Origin: Alphaproteobacteria bacterium
Lineage (GTDB): Bacteria > Pseudomonadota > Alphaproteobacteria > Micavibrionales > Micavibrionaceae
DNA length: 64,000 nt
Reading direction: 5' to 3'
Assembly (NCBI GenBank): GCA_028277665.1
Contig: JANQFU010000014.1
Coordinates: forward strand, 4,926 to 68,925
Below the pieces are notes generated by a model, which made no database searches, was not told the origin of the DNA, and saw only the letters and a list, made by a program, of their open reading frames with translations. Position 1 is the first letter of the stretch. Every line of letters starts with the position of its first letter. This document shows, one piece after another, positions 33,619 through 62,515 of this stretch. The translations under genes were made by a program, and so were the position numbers.

Positions 33619-33650
33619 TTATAAAAAAAACAAGATTTAAATTAACATAA

Positions 33651-33676
33651 ACACGCGCTTCACGGCGCGTGTTTTT
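33651..33676 (+). terminator. rho-independent terminator after ppdK
   Basis: ACACGCGC (33651-33658) pairs with GCGCGTGT (33665-33672), followed by TTTT. Confidence 0.75.
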
Positions 33677-33773: not shown

Positions 33774-34541
33774 ATGAACATATTCTTCGGAAGCACAGAA
33801 GCATGCTTTGTTCGCCGATGTTTGCAGTGTGGTGTGGTTTTGCTCGCCGTATTTGTTTTTGTCTTGTTTGCGGGGGCAGGAAACGGGTATGCCGCGAGCG
33901 AAGATCCTGTCCGCAGCTATAACAAACAATCAAAAATAACGACATATAACCGCCCCGGTGCTGAAAACGGGATCTGGCGGAAAGGCCATAGTGCGCGGTT
34001 TTATGCGAGATGTATGAATAGCGGTTCCTGGAAAGCCTATGCTGACGGGATTTGCTATCCTGCGGGACGCGACAGCTGTTCCTGTAATTCAGGCTGTGAC
34101 ACGGATTGGTGTTATAAAAGCTGGGGAACGCGATACGCAAGATCCGGAGATTTGGGGATCAGCCGGATCAACAAATGTTCCGGAAATATATGCCTTTCCG
34201 AAAATACGGACTCTCCCGGGAGTGGGGCCTCCCCCGAAATTACGGACGATACCGGGGATCCGATGCTCGCGATTATGCCGCGTGGGGATGGATATATAGA
34301 GTTTATCAAAGGCCTGGACGGGGTAAAAGTGAACGGGATTTACTGGCTTAACCTCCGGGGCGGAAACAAATATCTGATGATTCCGACGAAAGGGGACGAT
34401 TTCGGACGCTTTGTCTCGGAGAATCCGCCTGCCGTTAAGATGCAGAAAGCGTGTATGCCGGCAAGGTTCAGCCCGGGCTGTCCGTCCGCACCGAGTTGTT
34501 CCTGCCATTGTTCTCCCTGTCCGGATCCGGATCTGAAATGA
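33774..34541 (+). CDS. Cys-rich secreted hypothetical protein
   Basis: Hydrophobic signal segment (VVLLAVFVFVLFAGAGNGYAAS) followed by many Cys in short spacings (CSCNSGCDTDWC, CPSAPSCSCHCSPCP). It is on the same strand as the large pilin gene and 115 nt upstream of it. Confidence 0.5.
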   Translation: MNIFFGSTEACFVRRCLQCGVVLLAVFVFVLFAGAGNGYAASEDPVRSYNKQSKITTYNRPGAENGIWRKGHSARFYARCMNSGSWKAYADGICYPAGRDSCSCNSGCDTDWCYKSWGTRYARSGDLGISRINKCSGNICLSENTDSPGSGASPEITDDTGDPMLAIMPRGDGYIEFIKGLDGVKVNGIYWLNLRGGNKYLMIPTKGDDFGRFVSENPPAVKMQKACMPARFSPGCPSAPSCSCHCSPCPDPDLK

Positions 34542-34656: not shown

Positions 34657-36558
34657 ATGAAACATGATCTACACGGGAAATGCAGAAATATTTCTGGCGG
34701 AAAGCAGGGGTTCACGCTGATTGAGCTTTCGATCGTCCTGTTGATTATCGGGATCCTGACGGCCAGCTTGCTCGGCTTTGCTCAGGTGATGATGAAAAAG
34801 CGTCTCCTTGAGCAAACAGACGAGAAAATGAAACAGATTACGCTCGCTCTGGCGAAATACATTGCGGACGATCCGGAAGTGGATATTTCCGAAGATCCGG
34901 TCAGCTACCCTTGTCCTGCGCCTCTGACGGCAATTTCAGGGGAGGCGAATTTCGGACGTCCCCTGTGTCCGTCGAATTTCTCAAACACAACGCCGCGGGA
35001 CCTCGGGGGTGTGTTCGTCGTTCGCGGCTCGGGAGGCCGTGCAGTCCTCGTCGGGGCGGTACCCTCCAGCGAGTTGATGATCGAAGGGAAATATATGCTT
35101 GATCCTTACGGAAACAGGTTCACATACGCCGTGACGATGGATCTGGCGAAGCCTGCGTCTCTTCTTGAAGTTCCGCCGCCCGAAGGAGCGATCGGAATTC
35201 AGGATGAGTCAGGGACCGTAACATCTTCCGCACCGTTTGCCCTCGTCTCTCATGGAAGAAACGGCGTCGGCGCTTATGCGAACGGCGGTCTGCCGGTTTC
35301 GGATTGTCCGTCTCATCTCAAGGGGGACGCGATGAACTGCCAATGGAAAACGTCTCAGACAGCCGTTTTCAGGACGTCAAATGCGTTCACCAAAACATAC
35401 GATCAAAACTATTTCGACGATAAAACGGTTTATTCTTTCTATCTGACGGAAGATGAAGACGGATGGTGGAAAGCGACGGATGACAGCGGCGTGCATATCG
35501 TTCATAAAAACCCCGGGAATGTTGGGGTTGGAACGGACAATCCGGTTGCAAAATTTGAGGTGCACGGGGAAACGGATGACAGTAGTGCTGCCGCTGTGAA
35601 TATCAGGAGCGGAGATAAAGACAATACGATCATCCTGAACGTTCGCAATGACGGACGCGTCGGGGTTGGGACGGATGACCCGAAACGGAAACTCCACGTA
35701 AAATTCTCGAACAACAATCTGGATGATAAAGATGCTGTAGGACGATGGGCCGGTGCGGTGATCGAGAGTACGCGCGGACCGGCGCATCTGATGCTCCGGA
35801 CATCAAAACCGGATGCGCATTCCGCGATTCAGTTTTCATACGGAAAGGCTTCTGATTCGATTCTCGATTTTGATGACAGCCTTGTAAGAGGAGCTTTTGC
35901 ATTCGATTATACAACAGGAGGCTTTGCGTGGAGATCGGGCACGGGCGCGAATTTCAATGGTATCGCAAGCCTGGATAGAACGGGAAGCCTGTGGCTGAAT
36001 AGCGGTGCATGGGCCGGTGATAGTATTTATTCCGCGAATTTGCTTGTTGCAGGAAAAGGCGTTCGAGCCGATACGGGGAATATCATTGCGTCAAGCGGGA
36101 ATGTTATGGCTTCCGGTAATGTCGCCGCGAGCGTCAACGTCGAAGCTTTGAACAATGTCAGCGCCGGGAACAGCGCCTACGCCAAGCATTTCTATTATAG
36201 CGACGTGCCGGGAGGGACGTGCACGGGGACATGCGAGAGTGATGGCGACAGTGACCTGACGGCAATGTGTGCGGCAGGAGAGGTCCTGAGGGGAATTCAA
36301 AAAGGCCAGCCTGTCTGTATGACTTTAACGTTCCACTGTTCTTCCGGTCAGGCGCTTAGGGGAATTGTCAATGGACAGCCCCTTTGTGTCAGTATTTCAG
36401 GAAGTGGTGGTGATGGCTCATGCGGCTCTCATGGAAATGGAGATATCTGGCATGAGACAAACGGGAGCGGTCGTGAATGTTGTACATATACATATCAGTG
36501 TCTGAATGGGGAGGAAAAAAGGATTGATGATTCATGTTATGTATGTAACGACCCATAA
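34657..36558 (+). CDS. modular type IV pilin-like protein (633 aa) with fibre-like C-terminal module
   Basis: Class III (prepilin) signal GGKQG/FTLIELSIVLLIIGILTASLLG with Glu at +5. The downstream region has two GxVGVGTDxPxxKxxV repeats (35509-35568, 35647-35700) and two C-x-x-G-x-x-LRGI-x-x-GQP-x-C repeats (36269-36319, 36337-36387). Confidence 0.7.
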   Translation: MKHDLHGKCRNISGGKQGFTLIELSIVLLIIGILTASLLGFAQVMMKKRLLEQTDEKMKQITLALAKYIADDPEVDISEDPVSYPCPAPLTAISGEANFGRPLCPSNFSNTTPRDLGGVFVVRGSGGRAVLVGAVPSSELMIEGKYMLDPYGNRFTYAVTMDLAKPASLLEVPPPEGAIGIQDESGTVTSSAPFALVSHGRNGVGAYANGGLPVSDCPSHLKGDAMNCQWKTSQTAVFRTSNAFTKTYDQNYFDDKTVYSFYLTEDEDGWWKATDDSGVHIVHKNPGNVGVGTDNPVAKFEVHGETDDSSAAAVNIRSGDKDNTIILNVRNDGRVGVGTDDPKRKLHVKFSNNNLDDKDAVGRWAGAVIESTRGPAHLMLRTSKPDAHSAIQFSYGKASDSILDFDDSLVRGAFAFDYTTGGFAWRSGTGANFNGIASLDRTGSLWLNSGAWAGDSIYSANLLVAGKGVRADTGNIIASSGNVMASGNVAASVNVEALNNVSAGNSAYAKHFYYSDVPGGTCTGTCESDGDSDLTAMCAAGEVLRGIQKGQPVCMTLTFHCSSGQALRGIVNGQPLCVSISGSGGDGSCGSHGNGDIWHETNGSGRECCTYTYQCLNGEEKRIDDSCYVCNDP

Positions 36559-36582: not shown

Positions 36583-36613
36583 AGCGCGGACGTTTTATCG
36601 TCCGCGCTCTTTT
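36583..36613 (+). terminator. rho-independent terminator after the large pilin gene
   Basis: AGCGCGGACG (36583-36592) pairs with CGTCCGCGCT (36599-36608), then CTTTTG. Confidence 0.7.
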
Positions 36614-36743
36614 GCGAAGAAATGGCAAAAGTGAAACTCCACGGACCCTGGCCCGTGGAGTTTCACTCAATGCATTACAGGAACCTCTGCAAAAATCTCT
36701 TTAGGTCCTGACCCTGCATCTGTAAACGGAGTTTCAAATTCTG

Positions 36744-37721
36744 ATGAAAATTCTCTTTAACGCCGGAACACGCCTGACGGATACCGTTTTGTCAACCGGT
36801 GTACTGGCACGCCTTCGGGAGGAATACCCGCAGGCGGGCTTCACCGTTGTCTGCGGCGCGGCCGCCGCCCCGCTCTTTTACGGTCTGCCGGGCCTCGAGG
36901 GCACGATCGAGATTCCGGAAGGCGGGAAAGGCACAGCTTTTCGTTTGCGCCGGACGATCCGGCGGCAAAGCCCCTGGGATTTGATCGTCGATATCGCTGG
37001 GGATCTCCCCGTCCGGGCCGCGCATAAGGGCAGGAAGCGCCACGATCCCGACACGCACAAGGTCGAACGCGCCGCAAGAATTATGAACGCTATGGACGCA
37101 AAGAACGAAGGAAAAGCCGTTCCGGCCCCGCAACTCTGGATCTCGGAAAAAGACTGGGGGCCCGGATCCGCACGGGTTCCGAAAGGACCGGACGAATTGC
37201 CGGTTCTGGCGCTCGCGCCGATGACCGGGGAAATGGCGAAAATCTGGCCGCCGGGATGTTATCTGGATCTGATCGCGGATGTGTTCCGGCCCAAAGGCGT
37301 CTTCGCGGGATGGAAAATCGCGGTGATTTGCGCACCGGGAGAAGAATACGGCGCGAACCAGATTTACGAGATGCTCCCGCCCGAACGGCGGATCGACCTG
37401 ATGAACAAGGGCAATATCGCGCAGGCCGCGGCCTCTATCGCGCAATGCGGGTATTTTATCGGGAGTGAATCGGGGCTGGTGCACTGCGCGTCCGCTGTCG
37501 GGACGCCCTGTATGGCGCTCTTCGGGCCCGGCCGTCCGGCGCAGGATCGCCCGTGGGGCGCATGTGCGGCCTATGTCAGCACACCGGAGACGATAGAAGA
37601 ATTGACGGATTATAAGGACTACGACCCGGAATGGGCGCCATGCCTGATGGGTACGCTCAACCCGATAGACGTTCGCCAAGCCATTGAAAGCCATTGGCGG
37701 GGTCTGAACATCGCCGCATAG
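36744..37721 (+). CDS. glycosyltransferase family 9 (heptosyltransferase-like)
   Basis: C-terminal GT9 signature FIGSESGLVHCASAVGTPCMALFGPGRP. The length is 325 aa. Confidence 0.75.
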   Translation: MKILFNAGTRLTDTVLSTGVLARLREEYPQAGFTVVCGAAAAPLFYGLPGLEGTIEIPEGGKGTAFRLRRTIRRQSPWDLIVDIAGDLPVRAAHKGRKRHDPDTHKVERAARIMNAMDAKNEGKAVPAPQLWISEKDWGPGSARVPKGPDELPVLALAPMTGEMAKIWPPGCYLDLIADVFRPKGVFAGWKIAVICAPGEEYGANQIYEMLPPERRIDLMNKGNIAQAAASIAQCGYFIGSESGLVHCASAVGTPCMALFGPGRPAQDRPWGACAAYVSTPETIEELTDYKDYDPEWAPCLMGTLNPIDVRQAIESHWRGLNIAA

Positions 37722-48150: not shown

Positions 48151-48981
48151 TCAACCGGCATTTTTTTGTTTGCGGGCGTCGGCAATATAGCTGACGACCG
48201 TGCGGGCGATATCCTCGATATCTTCGGCCGCGTCACAATTCGGAGAACGGGTCAGGAGCGGGGTCTGGCGGCGGATCGCATCCTTGACTTTCGAATCGAG
48301 GCGCACCATTCCGGCCAGAGGCGGCGTGATCCGCAGGAAATTTTCGCAGGCTTTTAAAAGCGTTTTGTAGGTTCGCTCCGCTTCGGAAAGGCTTGACGCC
48401 ATATTGACGACGATGCTTACGTTTTTGGACATGCCTGCGGCATTGCCGAGTTTGATAAAGGCATACGCATCCGTGAGAGAGGTCGGCTCGTCCGTGGAAA
48501 TCAGAAGGATCCGGGTCGCACTCGCGGAGAGCATGCGGACTGTCCGGTCCACGCCCGCCCCGAGATCGACGATAACGACATCGTAATCCTCGGCGACTTC
48601 CAGAAGCTGATCCCGCAAAAGCGCCAGACGCTGGCTCGGCAGGGCGGACAGGGACGCCTGCCCGGAGCGGCCCGCGATAATGTCGAACCCGCCGTCTTCA
48701 TAGGTCTGGACGACTTTATCGAGGCCGAGCCGTCCGCGAATCACGTCATTCAGATCGCGCTTGGGCATGAGGCCAAGCTGGACGTCCACATTGGCAAGTC
48801 CGAGATCGCCGTCAAACAGGAGAACGCGCTTGCCGTCGCGCGCCAGAGCATGGGCCATGGAGATGGAGAACCACGTTTTCCCGACGCCGCCTTTACCGCT
48901 GGCCACGGCGATAATGTTGTGCCCCCGGCGGAAAGAGCCGGTCTGGGTGTCGTCTCTGTTGTGTGTATCGCTCGCGGTCAT
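48151..48981 (-). CDS. flhG: MinD/ParA-family ATPase FlhG (FleN/MotR-like)
   Basis: Deviant Walker A IAVASGKGGVGKT, DGDLGLANVDV and VIVDLGAG. There is a 4-nt overlap with flhF. Confidence 0.8.
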   Translation of the reverse strand: MTASDTHNRDDTQTGSFRRGHNIIAVASGKGGVGKTWFSISMAHALARDGKRVLLFDGDLGLANVDVQLGLMPKRDLNDVIRGRLGLDKVVQTYEDGGFDIIAGRSGQASLSALPSQRLALLRDQLLEVAEDYDVVIVDLGAGVDRTVRMLSASATRILLISTDEPTSLTDAYAFIKLGNAAGMSKNVSIVVNMASSLSEAERTYKTLLKACENFLRITPPLAGMVRLDSKVKDAIRRQTPLLTRSPNCDAAEDIEDIARTVVSYIADARKQKNAG

Positions 48982-49997
48982 CGCGTTGTCCGTCCTGTTC
49001 CCTGATCGTCCTGTCTTTTGCGTCTTTGAGACGGCATTAAATAATCACAAATAACTTTCGGGCTGGGCGTTTGCAACCCGTCGGCAACCTGCGGATTTGC
49101 GGAAAGCTCTGCAAAACTCAGGCCACCTTGATGCGCGGCTTCGAGAAGCCCGCCGATCCGCCGCGCGACATCAAGGCGCGTACACAGCATACGCTGGACG
49201 CCGATCGATGCGAATACGCGGGCGATTTCGCCGGATTCCGTCGCATCGGCCCCGGCCGGCATAACGAGGACAGGCTCGATCCTCCCGGTTTCGATCATCC
49301 GGGCCAGCGTCCGAACCTCGTCCGGTGCGAACGGGTTGATCCCGGGGGTATCAATGAAAACCTGTTCGGCCTGAGCGTCGGCGGCGCGCGCAAGCGCATC
49401 CTCCAGATCACTCCGGTTCGCGGCTTTGCTCAGGTTGACTTTCATGATCCGTAAAAAGGCCTGGAGTTGCTCCATCCCGCCCGCGCGCTGTGTGTCCGTC
49501 GAAACGACGGCCGCATTCATATCCTGAAAAATGGCGCGGGCCGTGAGTTTTGCGGTCGCAAGCGTTTTCCCGGCTCCGGGCGGACCGACGAGCATGAACG
49601 CCTTGCGGGAAGGACCGGAAGGCAAAGGCTGAAAGCCGAACAAATGCTCGACCGCGGCGATCAGGGCAACGCGCGGCTGCTCAAGCCCCATAACGGTTGC
49701 GCAAGAGAGAATCTGATCCGTCACGTCTTCCGGCACGGAATGTTTGAGCATCGCTTCCGTCAGTTCCTCGTTGACGGCAGCCTCAAGATCTTCCTCGTCA
49801 TATTGCAGCCAGCCGCCGTCATCGGCGGTGTCGGCCAGTTCAAAAGCAGGGGCGTCTTCAAGGGCGGCCGTCACCCTTACAGCGCGCCCGCCGTTCTCCT
49901 CGCGTGTTGCGACGATAATGGCATCTTCACCGAGAGCTTCACGAACCATCTGCATCGCCTCTGTCATGGTTTTTGCATAAAAGGACTTCAGCCGCAT
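48978..49997 (-). CDS. flhF: SRP-type GTPase FlhF
   Basis: N-terminus MRLKSFYAKTMTEAMQMVREALGEDAIIV, G1 GPPGAGKT, G3 DTPG, and G4 reading TRLD instead of the usual TKLD. Confidence 0.8.
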   Translation of the reverse strand: MRLKSFYAKTMTEAMQMVREALGEDAIIVATREENGGRAVRVTAALEDAPAFELADTADDGGWLQYDEEDLEAAVNEELTEAMLKHSVPEDVTDQILSCATVMGLEQPRVALIAAVEHLFGFQPLPSGPSRKAFMLVGPPGAGKTLATAKLTARAIFQDMNAAVVSTDTQRAGGMEQLQAFLRIMKVNLSKAANRSDLEDALARAADAQAEQVFIDTPGINPFAPDEVRTLARMIETGRIEPVLVMPAGADATESGEIARVFASIGVQRMLCTRLDVARRIGGLLEAAHQGGLSFAELSANPQVADGLQTPSPKVICDYLMPSQRRKRQDDQGTGRTTR

Positions 49998-50894: not shown

Positions 50895-52853
50895 ATGAGC
50901 GAAGACAGAGAGTTCGAGATTGATTTTGAATTGGAAGATGAGGATGGGCTCACCGGAGAGGATCTGCGTCCGGCGAGTGCCGGACATCATCCGTCCGGGG
51001 TGTCTTTGTCCGGGGACGAAACCGGCAAAAAAGAAGAGCGGATAACAAGCGAAACGCCGTCGGCGAACCGCCGCCCGGGTTCGGATCAAGGGGCCGTATC
51101 GGGGGCGAAGGCCGTTGCGCTTCGGGAGAATGCCTCGCAGGAGCTTGATGCGTCTTCCGGTGACGAAAAACGTCCGGGACAGCCCCGCCTTGGGGAGCGT
51201 CTGGTCCAGATGGGGTTGATTACCAAGGATCAGCTTAATGTTGCTCTGCACGAAAAAAAGCTGTCCGGGAAAATGCTGGGTGCGGTTTTTGTCGATCTCG
51301 GTTTTATCGACGAAAATACGCTGACGGCCATTTTGGCGGAATCCTCGGGCTTTGAGGTTTTTGATCCGAAAAATACGATTTTTGACGGAGAAGCCGTACG
51401 GCTGGTGGATAAGGAGACGGCCAAAAAATTTCAGTTTCTTCCGATTTCTTTAAGCGAACACGAAGCCCTTGTTGCGATGGTCGATCCGTACGACGTCGTG
51501 GCGCTTGATACGCTAAGAAAATTCATGCCGAAATCGGTTCAGATCAAGCCGATGGTCACAACGTCCTCAATGATCGATGATGCGCTCGATGCGGCATACG
51601 GATATGCCAGCTCCATTTCCGACATTCTTAAAGAACTTGAGAATGAGGATGATGTCGATCTGACCAAGCTTTCAGAGAGTGAAGCGTATTCGCATCCGAT
51701 TGTCAGGCTGGTGAACGCGCTTGTTTTTGATGCTGTTAAAACAGGGGCTTCCGACCTCCATTTCGAGCCGGAAGAGAACTTTGTTCGTCTGCGGTACCGG
51801 AAAGACGGTACGCTCTATACTGCCCAGATTTTGCACAAGCAGCACTGGAACGGCATTTCGCAGCGGATCAAAATTATGTCCCAGATGAACATTGCGGACA
51901 AACTCTCACCGCAGGACGGGCGCTTTGCCCTGAATGTCGGTGGGCGGGTCGCGGATTTCCGGGTTTCGTCTCTGCCCACGGTCTGGGGGGAAAATATTGT
52001 TATGCGGGTGCTCGACAAGAGCGCGAGCATCATGCCGCTTGAGGGGCTTGGGTTCAGCGCCGAAAATCTAAAAAAAATCCGGCGGGCACAGAGCAAACCC
52101 GAAGGAATCATTATTGTGACGGGGCCGACGGGAAGCGGGAAATCGACATCGCTCTATTCGATGTTGAACGAAATCAATTCGGTTGAGGTGAATATTCAGA
52201 CCCTCGAGGATCCGGTTGAATATTCGCTGCCGATGATTCGTCAGACGCCGGTCCGGGAAGGCGTGCTCGAATTTGCGGACGGGATCAAGGCTTTGCTGCG
52301 CCAGGACCCGGATATCATTTTTATCGGAGAAATCAGGGACGCGATTACGGGAGGAATGGCGCTCAAGGCGGCGATGACCGGGCACCAGGTGTATACGACA
52401 TTGCATACGAATGACGCTTTCGGCGCAATTCCGCGTCTTTTGGATCTCGACATGAAGCCGGGGATGCTCGCGGGGGCGATTATCGCCGTCTTTGCGCAGC
52501 GTCTGGTAAAACGGGTGTGTCAGAACTGCCGGATTCCACACGAAGCGACGCCGGAAGAATGCCGCCTGCTGGGAGCCGATCCGAATGTGCCGCCGACGAT
52601 ATACGAGGCGGCCCCGGATGGATGCAAGGTCTGCGAAGGCAAAGGTTACAAGGGGCGGATTGCCGTGGCCGAGATCCTTTTGTTTGATGAGGATATGAAC
52701 GCGCTTCTCGCGGAAGGCGTCTCAAAGGCGGAAATTAAAAAACTCGCTCTTGAAAAAGGCTTCAAAAATATGCGGGACGATGGCATGCTGAAAATTCAGG
52801 AAGGTGTGACGACTTTCGATGCCCTAAGCCGTGTTGTGGATATCAACGGATAA
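50895..52853 (+). CDS. pilB: type IV pilus assembly ATPase (PilB/MshE/GspE family)
   Basis: Walker A GPTGSGKST. Asp/His boxes are also present. The tetracysteine motif is CQNC...CKVCEGKGYKGR. An N-terminal T2SSE_N/MshEN-like domain is preceded by a ~97-aa acidic disordered extension. Confidence 0.88.
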   Translation: MSEDREFEIDFELEDEDGLTGEDLRPASAGHHPSGVSLSGDETGKKEERITSETPSANRRPGSDQGAVSGAKAVALRENASQELDASSGDEKRPGQPRLGERLVQMGLITKDQLNVALHEKKLSGKMLGAVFVDLGFIDENTLTAILAESSGFEVFDPKNTIFDGEAVRLVDKETAKKFQFLPISLSEHEALVAMVDPYDVVALDTLRKFMPKSVQIKPMVTTSSMIDDALDAAYGYASSISDILKELENEDDVDLTKLSESEAYSHPIVRLVNALVFDAVKTGASDLHFEPEENFVRLRYRKDGTLYTAQILHKQHWNGISQRIKIMSQMNIADKLSPQDGRFALNVGGRVADFRVSSLPTVWGENIVMRVLDKSASIMPLEGLGFSAENLKKIRRAQSKPEGIIIVTGPTGSGKSTSLYSMLNEINSVEVNIQTLEDPVEYSLPMIRQTPVREGVLEFADGIKALLRQDPDIIFIGEIRDAITGGMALKAAMTGHQVYTTLHTNDAFGAIPRLLDLDMKPGMLAGAIIAVFAQRLVKRVCQNCRIPHEATPEECRLLGADPNVPPTIYEAAPDGCKVCEGKGYKGRIAVAEILLFDEDMNALLAEGVSKAEIKKLALEKGFKNMRDDGMLKIQEGVTTFDALSRVVDING

Positions 52854-52907
52854 CGCATGACCTGATCATCTGAGGCCGGATCGGCCTTATTGTCTGCCGG
52901 AGGATTT

Positions 52908-54125
52908 ATGGAACGCTTCAAGTACAGGGCGATAAATGCCAAGGGCCGTTCGACCAGAGGGGTGATCTCTGCTGCGAACGAAACGGACCTGTATGAGCAG
53001 CTGAGCGTGGCGGGGCTTGAACTCGTTCAGTGCCAGAAGATTAAATCGAGGAAAAGTTTGTCCCCGGGATTCCTGATCAAGATGCGGGTTAATACCCGTG
53101 ATATGGTCCAGATTTTCTTGAGTCTCGACCAGATGCAGGGGGCGGGTGTCTCGATGCTCGACTCTCTGGCCGATATCCGGGATTCTCTTGATAATGAGAC
53201 GCTTCGCGACATTATGTCCGAGATTTGGCGGGATGTGTCTGAAGGGAGCGCGCTCTCCGAAGCGATGGCGCGACATCCTCTCATTTTTTCGCCGCTGTAT
53301 GTCTCCCTGATTGCGGCAGGGGAGGAAACGGGAAATCTGAATGCGTCCTATCAGCAATTGATCAAGTTTTTAAGCTGGAAAGAAGATCTTGAGCGCAAGG
53401 TGAAAAAAGCCAAGCGCTACCCGATTATTCTCGGGTGCGTGATTATCGGTGTCGTTGGCTTTATGATGACCCTTGTGGTGCCTCAGGTTGTAGGGTTTAT
53501 CGAGAATATCGGTCAGGATTTGCCGTTTTATACAATCTGGTTGATGCACACGTCTGACTTTTTTGTGAACTACTGGTGGCTGGTTCTGCCTGCGCCGTTT
53601 CTCGTCTTCTTCCTGATCAAGGTGTTGAGCAGCATGTCGAGCTCTTTTGCGTATCAGGTTGATCAGTTGTTTTTGTCGATGCCGATCGCGGGACCTCTGG
53701 TCCGGAAAATCAATATTGCCCGTTTCTCCCAGACTTTCGGCGCGCTGTATTCAAGCGGAATCGATGTGCTTAAGGGGCTCAGATCGGCGCAGGAGACGGT
53801 CACAAATCTGGCCTTAAATGCATCTTTGGAAGGTGTATACGAGGATGTCGCCGTCGGCAGTCCGCTTTCCGACGCGTTGAATGCCTCGGGGGAATTTCCC
53901 AGTCTTGTCGTGCGGATGGTGCGGATCGGAGAAGAATCCGGAGATCTTTCGACAGTGCTCGACAAGGTGGCGGATTATTATACAAAAGACGTGGATGATG
54001 CGGTTCAGGGATTGATTACGATGATTGAGCCTTTGCTTACGGCTATACTCGGTGCTATCATCGCCTGGATTGCTATCGCTGTCTTCGGCCCCATCTATAT
54101 GAGCTTTTCTGACATCGGACTCTAA
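52908..54125 (+). CDS. pilC: type IV pilus platform protein (PilC/GspF family)
   Basis: Two T2SSF repeats (LSEAMARHPLIFSPLYVSLIAAGEETGNL and LSDALNASGEFPSLVVRMVRIGEESGDL). ATG 52908 follows GGAGGA. Confidence 0.88.
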   Translation: MERFKYRAINAKGRSTRGVISAANETDLYEQLSVAGLELVQCQKIKSRKSLSPGFLIKMRVNTRDMVQIFLSLDQMQGAGVSMLDSLADIRDSLDNETLRDIMSEIWRDVSEGSALSEAMARHPLIFSPLYVSLIAAGEETGNLNASYQQLIKFLSWKEDLERKVKKAKRYPIILGCVIIGVVGFMMTLVVPQVVGFIENIGQDLPFYTIWLMHTSDFFVNYWWLVLPAPFLVFFLIKVLSSMSSSFAYQVDQLFLSMPIAGPLVRKINIARFSQTFGALYSSGIDVLKGLRSAQETVTNLALNASLEGVYEDVAVGSPLSDALNASGEFPSLVVRMVRIGEESGDLSTVLDKVADYYTKDVDDAVQGLITMIEPLLTAILGAIIAWIAIAVFGPIYMSFSDIGL

Positions 54126-54140
54126 TCGGGATTAAGGATA

Positions 54141-55793: not shown

Positions 55794-56436
55794 TGTTATG
55801 GCCGCAGGGAAGAGCCGGCTTTTTATTGTGTTCGTTTTGTTCGTCCTGAATGTATTCATGGCCGGGGTTGTCACGCAGTTCTTTATGCCCGAGACGACGC
55901 GCCTGTCGAGGGAAGTTTCCAAAACCGAACGCGACCTCCGGAAAACGAAAGCGGATGTCCGGACGTTCAAGGAAAAATATCAGGAAATCGAAGCTGAAAA
56001 AGAAAAATATAATGCCTTGATAAAAAACGGTTTTTTTGGCGGGCAGGACAGGGCGAGAGTTCGGGATCTGTTTGATTCCCTTCAGGACGTTTCGCATGTT
56101 TTCCGGGCGACATATACCGTCAGTCCCGCCCTTTTCGAAAAAAACGAAAATATCAGAAAAGCGGGGCACGTCATTTTGAACAGCCCGGTAACGGTACGGG
56201 TCGATGCGATTGACGATATTGATATTTACCGGTTTATCCATCTGATTGAAGACAGATTCCCTGGGCATACGGAAATCAGAAACATTCGGATTGTCAAAGA
56301 CAGGGAGGTCACTCAAAGCGTTCTGCGCGCAATCGGAAACAACACGCCTGTCCGGTTGGTCGGCGCCGATATTTCCTTTAACTGGCGGACCGTCATTCCG
56401 GAGGAAGCCGCGGAAGAAGAAGGAGAAGGGCGATGA
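55783..56436 (+). CDS. PilO/GspM-like bitopic assembly protein
   Basis: N-terminal TM (LFIVFVLFVLNVFMAGVV), a coiled coil (REVSKTERDLRKTKADVRTFKEKYQEIEAEKEKYNAL) and a ~110-aa C-terminal domain. It overlaps the upstream gene. Confidence 0.45.
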   Translation: MQIDVMAAGKSRLFIVFVLFVLNVFMAGVVTQFFMPETTRLSREVSKTERDLRKTKADVRTFKEKYQEIEAEKEKYNALIKNGFFGGQDRARVRDLFDSLQDVSHVFRATYTVSPALFEKNENIRKAGHVILNSPVTVRVDAIDDIDIYRFIHLIEDRFPGHTEIRNIRIVKDREVTQSVLRAIGNNTPVRLVGADISFNWRTVIPEEAAEEEGEGR

Positions 56437-57209: not shown

Positions 57210-57210
57210 G

Positions 57211-57966: not shown

Positions 57967-58073
57967 AGGAAAAGCTTTGGAATCTTCTTTGAATCGTCTA
58001 GAGTGTTAGCCGATGGACGGACGTCTCTAATACGGAACGGCGTGATACAAACCCGAGGATCAGGGGAACGAAG

Positions 58074-59255: not shown

Positions 59256-59275
59256 TATCCGGATTTTGAGCGGAC

Positions 59276-60055
59276 GTGGACGTGATGACCGATGTGTCGT
59301 GGGGGATGTTTCCCGGATCGCAGATTTTCTTTCTTTCCTTTTATGTTCTGATTGGCCTCTGTCTGGGCAGTTTTGCAAGCGTTCTTGCTCACAGGATCCC
59401 GTCCCGTGTGTCGTGGTCGGCGCTTCGGGGATGTAATGCTCGTTCTGCCTGCCCGGTTTGCCGGCATGTGTTGTGCTGGAAAGATTTGATTCCGCTCCTG
59501 TCATGGGCGCGCACCCGGGGGAAATGCGCCTATTGCGGCGCGCCGGTCGGATGGAGTTATCCCGCCCTTGAGGGGCTTTGCGGCATTCTTGCTTTGTTTG
59601 TCGGGATCGGGTACGGAATGACGGTGCCCTCCCTTTTTCTCCTGGCAATGATCCCGGTTCTTTCGGCCATGATTGTCATTGATTTGCGGCATCAGATTCT
59701 TCCGGACGTATTGTCGGGGGCTTTTTTCCTGCTAGGGCTCGCGTTTGTGTGGAGCTCGGGCATGCCGGTTTCCTTGCATTTTCTTGCCTCGCTTTACTAT
59801 GCCGGATTAATTTACGCTCTGGGGTGGTTGACCGGCCGAGCTGTTGGAAAACCGGCTCTCGGAATGGGGGATGTCAAGCTTGTCGCGGGGGCCGGGTTGA
59901 TTTTGGGGGCGCAGGCGTTGCCGTTTTTCATGTGCCTCTCCGGGGCCGGCGGACTGGTCACGGGACTTCTTTTCATGTACGCTCTGAAGAAGACAGGATG
60001 TTTTCCATTCGGTCCGGCTTTAATTTTATCGTTCTGGGTTTTGCTGTTTCTTTAA
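59276..60055 (+). CDS. pilD: prepilin peptidase / N-methyltransferase (A24 family)
   Basis: CLGSFASVLAHRIP, the CPVC...CAYCG zinc motif, and catalytic-Asp contexts IVIDLRHQILPD and GMGDVKLVAGAG. The start is ambiguous (GTG 59276 or ATG 59285). Confidence 0.85.
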   Translation: MDVMTDVSWGMFPGSQIFFLSFYVLIGLCLGSFASVLAHRIPSRVSWSALRGCNARSACPVCRHVLCWKDLIPLLSWARTRGKCAYCGAPVGWSYPALEGLCGILALFVGIGYGMTVPSLFLLAMIPVLSAMIVIDLRHQILPDVLSGAFFLLGLAFVWSSGMPVSLHFLASLYYAGLIYALGWLTGRAVGKPALGMGDVKLVAGAGLILGAQALPFFMCLSGAGGLVTGLLFMYALKKTGCFPFGPALILSFWVLLFL

Positions 60056-60212
60056 GCTGGAGGAATATTTTGTTGCTCTCTTTACATTCTGTTAGTTTTT
60101 TTGATCTATCGTGTCCTCCGGTATCGCTTCTTTTGCTCCGGTTGCGGCAGGGCATCCGCGTTTCACAGATATGATTTTACAGCTATGATCAAATTAGGAT
60201 AGGGAGGCAATC

Positions 60213-61385
60213 TTGGACTTAACCCAGCTTCTGGCTTTTTCGATGCAAAATGAGGCATCCGACCTCCATCTGGCCGCAGGAAACCCTGCGATCATTCGGG
60301 TTCACGGCCAAATCAAGCGCGTGAAAGGGGATCCGCTTTCGAGTGACGATATCCGTGGCATGCTGTATTCCGTCATGACGGATGATCAGCGGGCAGAGTA
60401 TGAGAAGGATCTGGAGCTCGATTTTGCGATCGCGTTTGGTGACAAGGCCCGTTTCCGGGTGAACGCCTATACGTCGAGGAATGGCGTGTGTGCCGTTTTC
60501 CGGACGATTCCGACCGAGGTCCCGACAATGGCGGAACTTGGTTTGCCGCCGATCATGCGGCGTTTTGCCGAACTTGAAAAGGGAATTATCCTGATTACCG
60601 GTCCGACGGGAAGCGGGAAATCTACGACGCTTGCATCAATGGTCAACCATATCAACCAAACCATGGCCAAGCATATCATGACCATTGAAGATCCTGTGGA
60701 ATTCTTCCATGCGTCGCAAAAATCTCTCGTTAATCACAGGGAAGTCGGTGCGGACACGCATTCTTTCAAGAGGGCTCTGAAGAGCGCGTTGCGGGAAGAT
60801 CCGGACGTGATCCTTGTGGGAGAGATGCGGGATTACGAAACGATCTCGCTTGCGCTGACGGCGGCGGAAACGGGGCACCTTGTCTTCGGAACCCTTCATG
60901 CAAGCTCGGCGGCCAAAACAATCGACAGGGTTCTGGACGTGTTCCCGGGCGAGGACAAGGCCATGGCCCGGGCGATGCTCTCGGGATCGCTTCAGGGTGT
61001 GGCCGCCCAAAATCTCCTTCGTAAAGTCAACGGGGGACGGGTCGGGGCATTTGAAATTCTGGTCGGAACGAATGCCGTCCGGAACCTGATCAGAGAAAAT
61101 CAGGTGGCGCAGATTTATTCGATGATTCAGACGGGGGCGCGTTACGGGATGATCACGATGGAAGACGCCGTCAGGGATCTCCTCGAATCCGGAGAGATTT
61201 CCCAGGACGAATCGCGCCGCGTTCTGATTAAAACAACCGACGAAGCGGCTGAAAGCTCTGACGATTCCGGCGAGTATGTTGCGGCATCGCTCGGTGGTGG
61301 GCGCCGTAACCCCCAGCCTGCCGGAGACCGTGGCGAAGATGGACGGGGCGGTGACACCGGGAACGGCGGAGGATATTCGTTTTGA
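60213..61385 (+). CDS. pilT: twitching-motility retraction ATPase PilT
   Basis: MDLTQLLAFSMQNEASDLHL N-terminus (TTG start after GGGAGG), Walker A GPTGSGKST, GHLVFGTLHAS and AVRNLIRENQ. It carries a Gly/Arg/Asp-rich C-terminal tail. Confidence 0.9.
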   Translation: MDLTQLLAFSMQNEASDLHLAAGNPAIIRVHGQIKRVKGDPLSSDDIRGMLYSVMTDDQRAEYEKDLELDFAIAFGDKARFRVNAYTSRNGVCAVFRTIPTEVPTMAELGLPPIMRRFAELEKGIILITGPTGSGKSTTLASMVNHINQTMAKHIMTIEDPVEFFHASQKSLVNHREVGADTHSFKRALKSALREDPDVILVGEMRDYETISLALTAAETGHLVFGTLHASSAAKTIDRVLDVFPGEDKAMARAMLSGSLQGVAAQNLLRKVNGGRVGAFEILVGTNAVRNLIRENQVAQIYSMIQTGARYGMITMEDAVRDLLESGEISQDESRRVLIKTTDEAAESSDDSGEYVAASLGGGRRNPQPAGDRGEDGRGGDTGNGGGYSF

Positions 61386-62515
61386 ACGCAGAGACGGTTT
61401 TTTCGTATCTGAACCGGATGAACGAAACAGGGGCCAGCGATCTCTATATGACCGTCGGTTATCCGCCGGCGTTGCGGATTGAAAACAAGATTGTGCCGAT
61501 TGACGGCGTGCCTTTGGATCCTCCGGCCGTTCACGATATCATGAATGCGGTTCTGACCGGCCGCCAGCTCAGGGAGTTTGAGACGGCGCAGGAACTGAAT
61601 TCGGCGCTTGATATAGGAGAATACGGGCGTTTTCGGGTGAACGTGTTGCGGCAACGGCAGCATGCGGCGCTGGTAATTCGCCGGATTGTCTCAAAAATAC
61701 CGGATTTTGAGACGCTGCGACTCCCCAGGATTCTGAAAGATCTCGTGATGGAGCCCCGGGGATTGGTCCTGATCAGTGGTATGACGGGAAGCGGGAAATC
61801 GACGACTCTTGCGTCGATGATCGACTACAGAAATGAAAACACCACGGGGCATATCATCACGATCGAGGATCCGATCGAATTTTATCACGAGCATCGCGGT
61901 TGTATTGTGACCCAGCGGGAAGTTGGCGTGGATACCGAATCATACGCCGTCGCAATGAAAAATGCACTCCGCCAGCGGCCGGATGTCATTCTGGTGGGAG
62001 AGGCGCGGGACCGGGAAGTTATGGAGCAGGCGCTCACGATTGCGGAAACCGGGCATTTATGTCTTGCCACGCTCCACACGAGCAATGCCTATCAGGCGAT
62101 TGAGAGGATTGTGAATTTGTTTCCTGAAGATATGTATCCGCAGGTTCGGATGAACTTGTCCATGAATCTTCGGGCGATCGTCTCTCAGCGTCTTGTTCGG
62201 TCGGTGGATGGAAAAATGGCGTTGGCGCTCGAAATTATGCTCAATCAGGGGCTGGTTCGGGAGCTTATTGAAAAAGGCGAAGTCGGGAAAATAAAGGACG
62301 TGATGGAGCAGAACATTACATCGGGGATGTGTACGTTCGACCATTCTTTGGCCATGCTCTGGCGGGAAGGGATTATTTCCGAAGGAATGGCTGTGTCTCA
62401 GGCCGATAAATCCGGGGACATGAAGCTGCGGCTGCAACGGATCAAACACGGGACGGATCACGCCCTGTTCGATATGATGGACACCTCTTTATTGTCGATT
62501 TCGGAATCGGAATAA
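61382..62515 (+). CDS. pilU: PilT-paralog ATPase PilU
   Basis: ASDLYMTVGYPPALRIENK, Walker A GMTGSGKST and GHLCLATLHTSNA. The TTG start overlaps the pilT stop (TTGA). Confidence 0.85.
   Translation: MNAETVFSYLNRMNETGASDLYMTVGYPPALRIENKIVPIDGVPLDPPAVHDIMNAVLTGRQLREFETAQELNSALDIGEYGRFRVNVLRQRQHAALVIRRIVSKIPDFETLRLPRILKDLVMEPRGLVLISGMTGSGKSTTLASMIDYRNENTTGHIITIEDPIEFYHEHRGCIVTQREVGVDTESYAVAMKNALRQRPDVILVGEARDREVMEQALTIAETGHLCLATLHTSNAYQAIERIVNLFPEDMYPQVRMNLSMNLRAIVSQRLVRSVDGKMALALEIMLNQGLVRELIEKGEVGKIKDVMEQNITSGMCTFDHSLAMLWREGIISEGMAVSQADKSGDMKLRLQRIKHGTDHALFDMMDTSLLSISESE

What the first reader, a model, noticed from the sequence alone, without database searches (positions are those of the whole stretch)
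34657..36558. 633-aa modular type IV pilin: canonical prepilin N-terminus fused to a fibre/tail-fibre-like, Cys-knotted C-terminal module
Seen: residues 14-40 read GGKQG/FTLIELSIVLLIIGILTASLLG, a textbook class III signal with Phe+1 and Glu+5. A PilD peptidase gene is present at 59276. The protein is about four times the size of a normal major pilin. Its distal half contains two GxVGVGTDxPxxK(F/L)xV repeats, a short-period G/N/S/A-rich stretch (GNIIASSGNVMASGNVAASVNVEALNNVSAGNS), two C-x-x-G-x-x-LRGI-x-x-GQP-x-C repeats and a final Cys-rich knob (CCTYTYQC...CYVC). Established: GNVGIGT-type repeats are common in phage tail-fibre-like and bacterial fibre proteins. Modular pilins that graft an adhesive module onto a pilin domain have been described, for example in Streptococcus sanguinis. 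Inference: this is a tip-located or low-abundance adhesin pilin that displays a fibre-type receptor-binding module on a type IV filament. I am not aware of this combination having been characterised. The gene sits ~14 kb from the machinery genes, is insulated by strong terminators on both sides, and no ordinary small pilin gene is visible in the window.
Basis: partly seen in the sequence, partly recalled or inferred. Interest (0 to 1): 0.7.

Follow-up and report, generated by a model that had tools for sequence, protein, structure and literature searches.

The report
Pilin fused to tail-fibre-like adhesin
This gene encodes a type IV pilus subunit whose outer half is related to the three-stranded prey-binding fibres of the predator Bdellovibrio, so it probably acts as a sticky pilus tip in a Micavibrio-like bacterium. 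It is a new variant of known kinds, not a new kind.

Summary

- **N-terminus:** residues 1-265 form a pilin module. It has a class III signal (G18/F19, E23), a predicted 50-residue alpha-1 helix and a confidently modelled beta-rich head.
- **Fibre region:** residues about 280-510 are homologous to the beta-helical fibre of Bdellovibrio "mosaic adhesive trimer" (MAT) proteins. All five MAT sequences found in the PDB are the top hits (E 1e-20 to 8e-8).
- **C-terminus:** residues 522-633 hold 12 cysteines. These include a pair of Cys-closed loops found across this pilin family, then a knob seen in no other protein found.

The pilin head defines a family found mainly in Micavibrio-type and alphaproteobacterial MAGs, with head-only forms in Betaproteobacteria. 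It has several paralogs per genome and swappable tips: Peptidase_S74, lectin, Gly-rich or Cys-rich. In relatives it often sits beside pilB-pilC.

My best reading is a low-abundance pilin that trimerises through its fibre and caps a retractile pilus as an adhesin, as CofB and TcpB do. Trimerisation, tip location and ligand are inferred, not shown.

One correction: the terminators bracket a two-gene unit that includes an upstream 255-aa ORF.

This is a new variant of known kinds (modular pilins, MAT fibres). Interest 0.6.

The parts
33649..33674 (+). Intrinsic terminator after the pyruvate phosphate dikinase gene. It marks the upstream boundary of the two-gene unit.
   Evidence: 11-bp stem, dG -16.5 kcal/mol, z -4.75, followed by UUUUUCU.
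33774..34541 (+). 255-aa Cys-rich ORF with a signal-peptide-like N-terminus (by eye). It is probably co-transcribed with the pilin and is a possible partner protein.
   Evidence: ORF. Called as a gene in two other assemblies. No Pfam or NCBIfam hit. Weak similarity (BLASTP E=3e-7, 23% identity over 149 aa) to a 530-aa signal-peptide-bearing ORF upstream of family pilins in L026.
34657..36558 (+). Gene for the 633-aa modular type IV pilin (coordinates include the stop codon).
34657..34710 (+). Leader peptide, residues 1-18, ending in Gly-1 (predicted PilD cleavage between G18 and F19).
   Evidence: Sequence GGKQG/FTLIE. N_methyl and TIGR02532 hits.
34711..34866 (+). Alpha-1 helix of the mature pilin, residues 19-70, with Phe+1, Glu+5 and a hydrophobic alpha-1N.
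   Evidence: AF2 helix 21-69/70 with pLDDT 88-96. The family profile hits the alpha-1 of solved pilins such as Geopilin, PilA, PilE and GspG, E 1e-11 to 1e-5.
34867..35451 (+). Beta-rich pilin head, residues 71-265. Family-conserved cysteines are at 86/104 and 217/228, with motifs RYPCPA, GN..TYAVT and VSHG.xG.GAY.
   Evidence: AF2 pLDDT about 90-97. Conservation. 33 protein homologs and 52 genome loci. Foldseek found no solved relative.
35452..35514 (+). Acidic hinge and conserved GWW junction, residues 266-286, linking head to fibre.
   Evidence: pLDDT below 50 at residues 263-268. G269, W270 and W271 are invariant in the close subfamily.
35515..35562 (+). Fibre capping-loop motif 1, GNVGVGTDNPVAKFEV, residues 287-302.
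   Evidence: Capping-loop motif of MAT fibres described in PMC10769870.
35653..35700 (+). Fibre capping-loop motif 2, GRVGVGTDDPKRKLHV, residues 333-348.
   Evidence: Aligns with GRVGVGTTAPTSALHV of Bd3182, 11 of 16 identical.
35701..36033 (+). Beta-helix-type fibre body, residues 349-459.
   Evidence: About 20 of the top 150 fibre proteins align through this region. A profile of residues 276-510 plus 8 homologous segments hits Bd2133, Bd3182 and other MAT structures.
36034..36186 (+). Hexad-repeat stretch (G-N-x-V-x-A type), residues 460-510, ending in YAKHFYYSDVP.
   Evidence: Period 6. Shared with P0135 and P0186 of Micavibrio aeruginosavorus MAGs. Matches beta-helix proteins carrying FapA or MinC_C Pfam domains.
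36220..36555 (+). Cys-rich tip, residues 522-633, with 12 Cys. Family-wide Cys loops lie at 36268-36318 and 36337-36387. The knob at 36421-36546 was not found in any other protein.
   Evidence: No PDB relative. Only P0135 aligns, and only up to residue 583.
36583..36608 (+). Intrinsic terminator 25 nt after the stop codon.
   Evidence: 10-bp GC-rich stem, dG -20.4, z -3.8, followed by UCUUUUG.
50895..54125 (+). PilB-like extension ATPase (with an MshE-type c-di-GMP motif) and the PilC/GspF platform protein.
   Evidence: Homologs at 73% and 59% identity lie directly after three family pilins in L025.
59276..62515 (+). Prepilin peptidase PilD (59276-60055) and two PilT/PilU retraction ATPases (60213-61385 and 61382-62515).
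   Evidence: Pfam A24_N_bact and Peptidase_A24. TIGR01420 scores of 467 and 417 bits against a cutoff of 319.

Best explanation
The gene encodes a modular, probably low-abundance type IV pilin.

**Shown**
- It has a class III signal peptide and a pilin alpha-1.
- It has a confidently modelled beta-rich head that defines a family found mainly in Micavibrio-type and alphaproteobacterial MAGs.
- A flexible hinge is followed by a fibre segment homologous to the beta-helical shaft of Bdellovibrio MAT fibres.
- A hexad-repeat stretch comes next, then a 12-Cys tip.
- A complete retractile pilus machinery, including PilD, lies in the window.

**Inferred**
- PilD cleaves after G18, and the mature protein waits in the inner membrane on its alpha-1N.
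- Three copies associate through the fibre module into a trimer. MAT fibres do this, and a paralog's Peptidase_S74 chaperone implies the same.
- A trimeric distal module can only sit at the start of the filament. The trimer would therefore prime or cap the pilus, as CofB and TcpB do in type IVb pili.
- The disulfide-rich knob would bind a surface ligand on another cell, probably prey, and PilT-driven retraction would pull the two cells together.
- Paralogs with different tips would widen the range of targets.
For: **Pilin identity**
- Curated HMM hits.
- Alpha-1 homology to solved pilins, E 1e-11.
- AF2 helix 21-69 plus head, pLDDT about 90.

**Machinery**
- PilB, PilC, PilD and two PilT in the window.

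**Link between family and machinery**
- L025 has three family pilins directly upstream of pilB (73% identical to the window's) and pilC (59%).
- L010 has a pilC-like match (42% identical) ending just upstream of a large pilin.
- Head-only homologs lie in pilB-pilC operons in several Betaproteobacteria.

**Fibre homology**
- The family profile hits Bd2133 at E=2.6e-7.
- The fibre-region profile hits 8ond at 1e-20, 8oml at 1.4e-15, 8on4 at 7.5e-11, 8ol4 at 2.4e-10 and 8ojn at 7.6e-8, with nothing else significant.
- These structures are trimers (PMC10769870).

**Support for a trimer**
- The subfamily paralog L015 (43% identical in the head) carries N_methyl plus Peptidase_S74, E=1.7e-16.
- The fibre homolog P0118 ends in S74.
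- Eleven related loci carry exactly three tandem family pilins.
- CofB is a precedent for a homotrimeric tip and initiator pilin (PMC6048534; PMC8179133).

**Variable tips and paralogs**
- S74, Gly_rich_2, Laminin_G_3 and Cys-rich tips.
- Five copies in MAG OFTM66.
- Tandem copies in L011 share a 1058-nt identical block and then diverge.

**Low abundance**
- In M. aeruginosavorus ARL-13 the large prepilin-type genes are weakly expressed, while a 744-nt one is highly expressed (supplement of PMC3189940). Homology of those genes to this family was not tested.

**Export**
- Twelve Cys in the tip fit an oxidising extracytoplasmic location.
Against: - No oligomer could be modelled.
- The query itself has no S74 domain.
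- Single-sequence similarity to MAT structures is weak: E=0.015 for Bd2133 and 0.17 for Bd3182. The strong E-values come from profiles dominated by other family or fibre sequences.
- Foldseek finds no solved pilin head resembling this one, with best E about 1.
- The hexad stretch also resembles single-chain beta-helices of the FapA and MinC_C type, so a monomeric fold is possible.
- No major pilin and no secretin were identified in the window.
- The source organism was not identified directly. Its Micavibrio-like nature rests on best hits.
- No ligand is known.
Confidence: 0.5

Rival explanations
1. A monomeric modular pilin adhesin. The fibre-like module folds as a single-chain beta-helix with a disulfide-rich knob. 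One copy sits at the pilus tip, or copies are sparsely interspersed along the shaft on the flexible hinge, as proposed for S. sanguinis PilB and PilC.
For: - The hexad stretch matches single-chain beta-helix proteins (FapA, MinC_C).
- The query has no S74 chaperone.
- There is a flexible hinge at residues 263-268.
- Monomeric modular pilins are well documented (PMC8179133).
Against: - The capping-loop and beta-helix region is homologous to fibres solved only as intertwined trimers.
- A paralog carries S74.
- AF2 could not fold the module as a monomer, giving pLDDT about 30. That is typical for obligate trimers, although a shallow alignment would also explain it.
Confidence: 0.25
2. Not a filament subunit. 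The prepilin signal serves only for export and inner-membrane anchoring, or for a short pseudopilus as in type II secretion. The fibre would be displayed on or near the cell surface independently of a long pilus.
For: - NCBI names relatives "type II secretion system protein".
- Distant head-only homologs have GspG-like similarity extending to GspG positions 2-103.
- PilB and PilC score about equally as GspE and GspF.
- No secretin or major pilin was identified in the window.
Against: - Two PilT/PilU retraction ATPases pass the curated cutoff beside PilD, which fits a retractile pilus rather than a secretion pseudopilus.
- A fibre tethered to the inner membrane could not reach other cells.
- The family has expanded, variable tips, as expected for exposed receptor-binding proteins.
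Confidence: 0.12
3. It is the major pilin of this system and builds a thick filament decorated along its length with fibre modules.
For: - It is the only prepilin-motif ORF in the 64-kb window.
- Head-only members of the same family lie inside pilB-pilC operons in Betaproteobacteria and could be major pilins there.
Against: - A 368-residue distal module on every subunit would clash sterically, which is the argument made for PilB in PMC8179133.
- Relatives occur as several divergent paralogs per genome.
- The large prepilin genes of M. aeruginosavorus are weakly expressed while a 248-aa one is abundant.
- The gene is 14 kb from the machinery, and the window covers only part of the genome.
Confidence: 0.05
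4. A decaying or chimeric gene, or an assembly artefact, with no function.
For: - The protein is a singleton at 90% clustering.
- The last 50 residues have no homolog.
Against: - An intact 633-codon ORF is recovered identically in three assemblies.
- All family-invariant residues are retained.
- P0135 shares the full architecture.
- The gene has its own terminator.
Confidence: 0.03

Closest known systems
Bdellovibrio bacteriovorus mosaic adhesive trimer (MAT) fibres: Bd2133, Bd3182, Bd1334, Bd2439, Bd2734, Bd2740 (Caulton et al. 2024, PMC10769870)
   Same: - Homologous beta-helical fibre shaft with the same capping-loop motif.
- S74 and non-S74 versions both exist.
- Many paralogs per genome with swappable C-terminal tips, including lectin-type tips.
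- Found in bacteria that prey on other bacteria.
   Different: - MAT proteins start with a Sec signal peptide and a conserved beta-rich anchor domain of about 130 aa whose partner is unknown. This protein starts with a prepilin signal and a pilin module instead.
- The fibre here is much shorter: about 230 residues, against MAT proteins of about 600 to more than 1000 aa.
- The Cys-loop pair and the 12-Cys knob have no counterpart in the solved MAT tips.
Modular type IV pilins, defined on Streptococcus sanguinis PilB (vWA module) and PilC (lectin module) (Raynaud et al. 2021, PMC8179133)
   Same: [quoted passage not shown]
- Predicted to be exposed at the tip and adhesive.
   Different: - Those modules are monomeric globular domains in a monoderm. 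This module is a tail-fibre-type, presumably trimeric shaft in a diderm.
- There is no sequence relationship beyond alpha-1.
CofB (ETEC CFA/III) and TcpB (V. cholerae TCP), homotrimeric minor pilins of type IVb pili (PMC6048534; cited in PMC8179133)
   Same: - A large minor pilin with pilin domain, flexible linker and beta-rich distal domains that homotrimerise.
- The trimer sits at the tip and initiates assembly.
- CofB anchors an operon-encoded secreted protein (CofJ). Here a 255-aa ORF with a signal-peptide-like N-terminus lies just upstream.
   Different: - No sequence similarity was detected. CofB and TcpB chains were not among the PDB hits.
- The distal domains differ: beta-repeat plus H-type lectin in CofB, against beta-helix fibre plus Cys knob here.
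- The machinery here has PilT/PilU, and the pilin gene is not inside the machinery operon.
InterPro architecture IPR012902-IPR030392 (pilin plus Peptidase_S74), catalogued among frequent modular pilins (PMC8179133)
   Same: - A prepilin N-terminus fused to a tail-fibre-type protein.
- Paralog L015 of this very family has exactly this architecture.
   Different: - The query lacks S74.
- The catalogue entry was read only as a "peptidase" and was never characterised or linked to trimeric fibres or predation.
Phage tail fibres and tailspikes with S74 intramolecular chaperones (K1F endosialidase, T5 L-shaped fibre) and eukaryotic MYRF
   Same: - The same GxVGIGT...P...L capping-loop signature. MYRF 7dc3 appears as a weak hit.
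- Fibre homologs ending in S74.
   Different: - This protein is not part of a virion. No relatives were found in viral contigs with the patterns used.
- It is anchored by a pilin instead of a tail-attachment domain.

Membership tests
Type IV pilin / type IV filament subunit | Class III signal peptide: short hydrophilic leader ending in Gly, then Phe/Met +1, Glu +5 and about 21 hydrophobic residues. | tested here: met
   The sequence reads GGKQG/FTLIELSIVLLIIGILTASLLG. Pfam N_methyl scores 24.7 bits against a cutoff of 21.2. TIGR02532 scores 28.3 against 16.3.
Type IV pilin / type IV filament subunit | A long N-terminal alpha-1 helix of about 50 residues packed on a beta-sheet head (the lollipop shape). 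| tested here: inconclusive
   AF2 gives helix 21-69 and a multi-strand head with pLDDT about 90 and pTM 0.78. Alpha-1 is homologous to solved pilins. Foldseek found no solved pilin head similar to it, with best E about 1. Helix-sheet packing could not be inspected.
Type IV pilin / type IV filament subunit | A cognate prepilin peptidase and an assembly ATPase and platform protein encoded in the genome. | tested here: met
   PilD, PilB, PilC and two PilT/PilU lie at 50895-62515. Family pilins lie beside pilB-pilC in L025, L010 and several betaproteobacterial loci.
Type IV pilin / type IV filament subunit | Processing by the peptidase and incorporation into a filament. | not testable with these tools
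   This needs biochemistry: a PilD-dependent size shift, and mass spectrometry or immunogold on sheared pili.
Modular pilin (sensu Raynaud and Pelicic 2021) | A pilin module followed, through a short linker, by an extra module not specific to pilus biology. | tested here: met
   The head ends at about residue 262 and a low-confidence hinge spans 263-268. The C-terminal 368 residues are homologous to non-pilin fibre proteins.
MAT (mosaic adhesive trimer) superfamily of Bdellovibrio | A beta-helical fibre shaft with the capping-loop motif (V-G-G/N-small-x-x-P-x-x-x-L). | tested here: met
   Two motifs lie at residues 287-302 and 333-348. Profile hits to 8ond, 8oml, 8on4, 8ol4 and 8ojn range from E 1e-20 to 7.6e-8. 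The family profile gives E=2.6e-7. Single-sequence E is only 0.015 to 0.17.
MAT (mosaic adhesive trimer) superfamily of Bdellovibrio | A Sec signal peptide followed by the conserved beta-rich N-terminal anchor domain of about 130 aa, present in all 21 HD100 MATs. | tested here: not met
   The N-terminus is a prepilin signal plus a pilin module. The protein is therefore not filed as a MAT member, only as carrying a MAT-type shaft.
MAT (mosaic adhesive trimer) superfamily of Bdellovibrio | An intertwined homotrimer. | not testable with these tools
Indirect support comes from the S74 domain on paralog L015.
Peptidase_S74 (intramolecular chaperone) tail-fibre proteins | A C-terminal S74 domain with the SDxxxK catalytic motif. 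| tested here: not met
   The query has no Pfam hit other than N_methyl at E<=1. The domain is present in paralog L015 (E=1.7e-16, SDKRLK by eye) and in fibre homolog P0118.
CofB/TcpB-type trimeric initiator minor pilins (type IVb) | Sequence or fold homology to CofB or TcpB (type IVb pilin domain, beta-repeat domain, H-type lectin domain). | tested here: not met
   No CofB or TcpB chain appears in any PDB sequence search or Foldseek search. The resemblance is functional and architectural only.

The most novel reading that the evidence does not exclude
Epibiotic, Micavibrio-type predators would mount a phage-tail-fibre-like homotrimeric receptor-binding protein directly on the tip of a retractile type IV pilus, built from three pilin subunits. 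They would diversify it by swapping tip cassettes among paralogs. Prey range would then be set by a pilin repertoire that parallels, and shares ancestry with, the Bdellovibrio MAT fibres and phage receptor-binding proteins. This would also show one way a MAT-type shaft can be anchored to a cell, a question Caulton et al. left open for Bdellovibrio.
Probability: 0.3. Interest if true: 0.8.

Novelty: new variant of a known kind. Interest (0 to 1): 0.6.

Why it matters
How predatory bacteria recognise prey is largely unknown. Type IV pili are required for Bdellovibrio predation. MAT fibres were recently shown to be its prey-binding adhesins, but their cell anchor is unidentified, and the two systems have not been connected.

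This protein family joins a MAT-type shaft covalently to a pilin. It occurs in a lineage of unrelated, epibiotic predators, next to a retractile pilus machinery. That gives a concrete hypothesis: the pilus tip is the prey receptor-binding device, and its specificity is encoded in interchangeable tips.

The hypothesis can be tested in the cultivable Micavibrio aeruginosavorus. The family also adds to the short list of pilins expected to form a trimeric tip (CofB, TcpB). And it re-reads the catalogued "pilin-S74 peptidase" architecture as a pilin-borne trimeric fibre.

Tried and rejected
- **Word-index search with the C-terminal half:** it found only the protein itself. The exhaustive search was needed.
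- **Foldseek against the PDB:** nothing significant with the full model or the clean N-terminal model. The head cannot be assigned to a pilin subclass.
- **AF2 of the full protein:** residues 307-633 are unmodelled.
- **Profile of the Cys-loop pair against the PDB:** no relative.
- **Viral-contig scans with the tip and the fibre region, and a metagenome scan with the tip:** no confirmed relatives. The automatically chosen patterns were very specific, so this says little about distant homology.
- **The first genome scan with the 33-sequence alignment:** failed for lack of a conserved stretch. It was repeated with 8 close sequences.
- **Upstream 255-aa ORF as a conserved partner:** only one weak match among 58 loci, so it is kept as a lead only.
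- **Downstream GT9 gene as a dedicated pilin glycosyltransferase:** rejected for now. It is absent beside all homologs, is separated from the pilin by a terminator, and is closest to LPS heptosyltransferase II.
- **Context of the closest homologs:** the neighbours are unrelated housekeeping genes, so there is no conserved operon for this subfamily.
- **Organism identification:** not achieved directly. The protein clusters are singletons without names, and the genome is not in the species-representative collection.
- **Rfam:** only one tRNA in the window.
Full report
**1. The observation**

The identical protein, with the same neighbours, is present in two independent Logan assemblies.

The N-terminus passes curated thresholds for the prepilin cleavage and methylation motif:
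- Pfam N_methyl: E=1.6e-5, 24.7 bits against a cutoff of 21.2.
- TIGR02532: E=1e-6.

Pfam matches nothing else in the protein at E<=1. The other NCBIfam hits are pilin or pseudopilin models that cover only the N-terminal ~70 residues and fall below their cutoffs.

- Two GxVGVGTDxPxxK(F/L)xV repeats at residues 287-302 and 333-348.
- A short-period stretch at 460-510, with a true period of six.
- Two Cys-closed loops at 538-554 and 561-577.
- Twelve cysteines between residues 522 and 630.

The machinery is present:
- A PilB-like ATPase at 50895, with an MshE-type c-di-GMP motif.
- PilC/GspF at 52890.
- PilD at 59276.
- Two PilT/PilU ATPases, at 60213 and 61382, both above the curated cutoff.

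A six-frame scan finds no other prepilin-motif ORF with a hydrophobic tail in the window.

One claim needs correction. The upstream terminator (33649-33674) lies before a 255-aa ORF (33774-34541), whose N-terminus looks like a signal peptide. The 115-nt gap between that ORF and the pilin contains no terminator. The downstream terminator at 36583-36608 is convincing. The insulated unit is therefore two genes.

**2. The N-terminal half is a pilin module that defines a family**

A search of 5.8 billion proteins returned 33 relatives of 370-830 aa. All of them align only with the first 45-53% of the query. Their sources name them "type II secretion system protein" or "prepilin-type ... domain-containing protein", from Micavibrio or Alphaproteobacteria.

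A scan of species-representative genomes gave 52 loci:
- Most are MAGs labelled Micavibrio, Pseudobdellovibrionaceae or Bdellovibrionales, which is where NCBI taxonomy places Micavibrio.
- Others are labelled Alphaproteobacteria, Midichloriaceae or Rickettsiales.
- Head-only forms of about 240 aa occur in some Betaproteobacteria.

Family-conserved positions include RYPCPA, GN..TYAVT, VSHG.xG.GAY and two cysteine pairs (86/104 and 217/228).

AlphaFold2 models residues 20-260 with pLDDT about 90. The model has a helix at 21-69 followed by a multi-strand beta-rich head, and a low-confidence hinge at 263-268. The family profile matches the alpha-1 of solved pilins and GspG at E 1e-11 to 1e-5.

Foldseek found no solved structure resembling the head. 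The head fold is therefore unassigned, and the pilin call rests on the signal, alpha-1 and overall shape.

**3. The family is tied to this type of machinery**

The evidence comes from three kinds of locus:
- In L025, three tandem family pilins (426, 784 and 432 aa) lie directly upstream of pilB (73% identical to the window's PilB) and pilC (59%).
- In L010, a pilC-like match (42% identical) ends just upstream of a large pilin.
- In several betaproteobacterial loci, the head-only pilin lies a few kb downstream of pilB-pilC homologs.

Twenty-eight of 56 loci carry two or more family pilins. Eleven carry exactly three. The L025 triplet (426/784/432 aa) has the same small-big-small sizes as M. aeruginosavorus ARL-13 genes GMV_742/743/744 (1176, 2079 and 1134 nt). 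In that organism the large prepilin genes are weakly expressed, while a 744-nt one is abundant (supplement of PMC3189940). I could not test whether those genes are homologous to this family.

The query's closest subfamily (40-45% identity) consists of orphan or tandemly duplicated genes among unrelated housekeeping genes.

**4. The distal half is a MAT/tail-fibre-type shaft plus a Cys-rich tip**

An exhaustive phmmer search with residues 266-633 gave 3363 hits at E<=1e-3. Almost all are to residues about 280-355, within very large repeat proteins of up to 4800 aa with up to 29 matched stretches. About 20 of the top 150 extend to residue about 500. One such homolog ends in Peptidase_S74.

Against the PDB:
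- The family profile hit Bdellovibrio Bd2133 at E=2.6e-7, and also other "cell wall surface anchor" fibre proteins and MYRF.
- A profile of residues 276-510 with eight homologous segments hit all five MAT fibre sequences found in the PDB and nothing else significant: 8ond 1e-20, 8oml 1.4e-15, 8on4 7.5e-11, 8ol4 2.4e-10 and 8ojn 7.6e-8.
- The query alone gives only E=0.015 and 0.17. Even so, its second repeat, GRVGVGTDDPKRKLHV, aligns with GRVGVGTTAPTSALHV of Bd3182.

Caulton et al. (PMC10769870) identify this motif as the capping loop of an intertwined trimeric beta-helix. They describe 21 paralogous "mosaic adhesive trimers" with S74 or non-S74 tips, displayed on the predator surface and binding prey glycans.

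The hexad stretch, the YAKHFYYSDVP element and the Cys loops are shared with P0135 and P0186 from Micavibrio aeruginosavorus MAGs. The Cys-loop pair recurs across the family and has no solved relative. The last 50 or so residues matched nothing in these searches.

**5. Why I infer a trimer at the pilus tip**

This step is inference, not observation. The arguments are:
- The shaft is homologous to proteins solved only as trimers.
- L015, a member of the query's own subfamily (43% identical in the head), carries N_methyl plus Peptidase_S74 (E=1.7e-16). That domain is the intramolecular chaperone ensuring productive trimerisation of tail-fibre-type spikes.
- Other members end in Gly_rich_2 or a ConA-like lectin. 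The head is therefore a carrier for interchangeable tips, as in MATs.
- Three-gene pilin arrays are common.
- A distal trimer is sterically compatible only with the first three subunits of a filament. This is the arrangement established for CofB, and proposed for TcpB, which form a trimeric initiator and tip complex (PMC6048534; PMC8179133).
- Two PilT/PilU ATPases imply retraction.

Against this:
- No multimer could be modelled.
- The query lacks S74.
- The hexad stretch also resembles single-chain beta-helices.
- Neither a major pilin nor a secretin was identified in the window.

**6. Comparison with what is known**

- It is a modular pilin in the sense of Raynaud et al., and meets that definition.
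- It carries a MAT-type shaft but fails the MAT N-terminal anchor criterion. I therefore do not file it as a MAT.
- It would work like CofB and TcpB but is not homologous to them.
- Pilin plus S74 is already catalogued, read only as a "peptidase".
- Caulton's Table S3 lists a 654-aa S74-like MAT-type protein in M. aeruginosavorus without mentioning a pilin N-terminus.
- In the full-text searches I ran, I found no paper that describes or characterises a pilin-borne MAT-type fibre.

**7. Verdict**

The thing is a new variant of known kinds. The source organism is only inferred to be Micavibrio-like. Interest 0.6.

Noticed in passing
window 33774-34541 (+); L026:3119-4711: A 255-aa Cys-rich ORF with a signal-peptide-like N-terminus lies between the PPDK terminator and the pilin, and is probably co-transcribed with it. 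It is weakly similar (BLASTP E=3e-7, 23% over 149 aa) to a 530-aa ORF with a signal-peptide-like N-terminus just upstream of three tandem family pilins in a distant MAG. It could be a tip-binding partner in the manner of CofJ with CofB.
   Followed up: partly
L011:5082-8712: Two tandem family pilins share a block of 1058 nt at 100% identity, from the mature N-terminus onward, and then diverge completely in the tip. Between them, a 153-aa mini-ORF (6668-7129) joins a degenerate pilin-like N-terminus to a spare tip cassette that is 69-73% identical to tips of neighbouring paralogs. This looks like tip swapping by recombination, although assembly collapse is not excluded.
   Followed up: partly
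L021, L022, L023, L025, L029, L031, L036, L038, L041, L044, L046: Three tandem family pilins are a recurrent operon, and in L025 it lies directly upstream of pilB-pilC. The L025 sizes (426/784/432 aa) match the 1176/2079/1134-nt sizes of M. aeruginosavorus ARL-13 GMV_742-744. A heterotrimeric tip complex is an obvious possibility.
   Followed up: partly
L049-L053, L058, L060: Head-only members of the same pilin family (about 235-280 aa) occur in Pseudoduganella, Azonexus and other Betaproteobacteria, within operons that begin with pilB- and pilC-like genes. In Azonexus a second pilin-like gene follows. This appears to be an uncharacterised type IV filament system.
   Followed up: partly
window 54141-57209 (+): Three genes (550, 217 and 258 aa) between pilC and an ABC-type ATPase have no Pfam or NCBIfam match. 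The 550-aa protein is faintly similar (E=0.004) to the gene after pilC in L058. They are presumably the unrecognised alignment or assembly proteins of this pilus. No secretin was recognised in the window.
   Followed up: partly
window 36630-36667: A perfect 15-bp hairpin (dG -29.8 kcal/mol, z -8) lies just after the pilin terminator. It has no U-tract and its role is unknown.
   Followed up: no
window 36744-37721 (+): A GT9 heptosyltransferase-like gene lies directly downstream of the pilin. Its best match is LPS heptosyltransferase II, well below the cutoff. Enzymes of this family glycosylate some beta-helical adhesins, but the gene is absent beside all pilin homologs and is separated from the pilin by a terminator. 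The adjacency is probably coincidental.
   Followed up: partly
window 50895-52853 (+), residues 98-149: The PilB-like ATPase carries an MshE-related c-di-GMP-binding motif (NF053729, 61.7 bits against a cutoff of 38). Pilus extension may therefore be controlled by c-di-GMP.
   Followed up: no
window 48151-49997 (-): FlhF and a MinD/FlhG-like ATPase lie next to the pilus cluster. The organism is probably flagellated.
   Followed up: no
PMC10769870, Supplementary Table S3: Caulton et al. list MICA_2368 of M. aeruginosavorus ARL-13 (654 aa, S74-like tip) as a MAT-type protein and do not comment on its N-terminus. Given L015, it may be a pilin-S74 fusion of this family. I could not check the sequence.
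   Followed up: no
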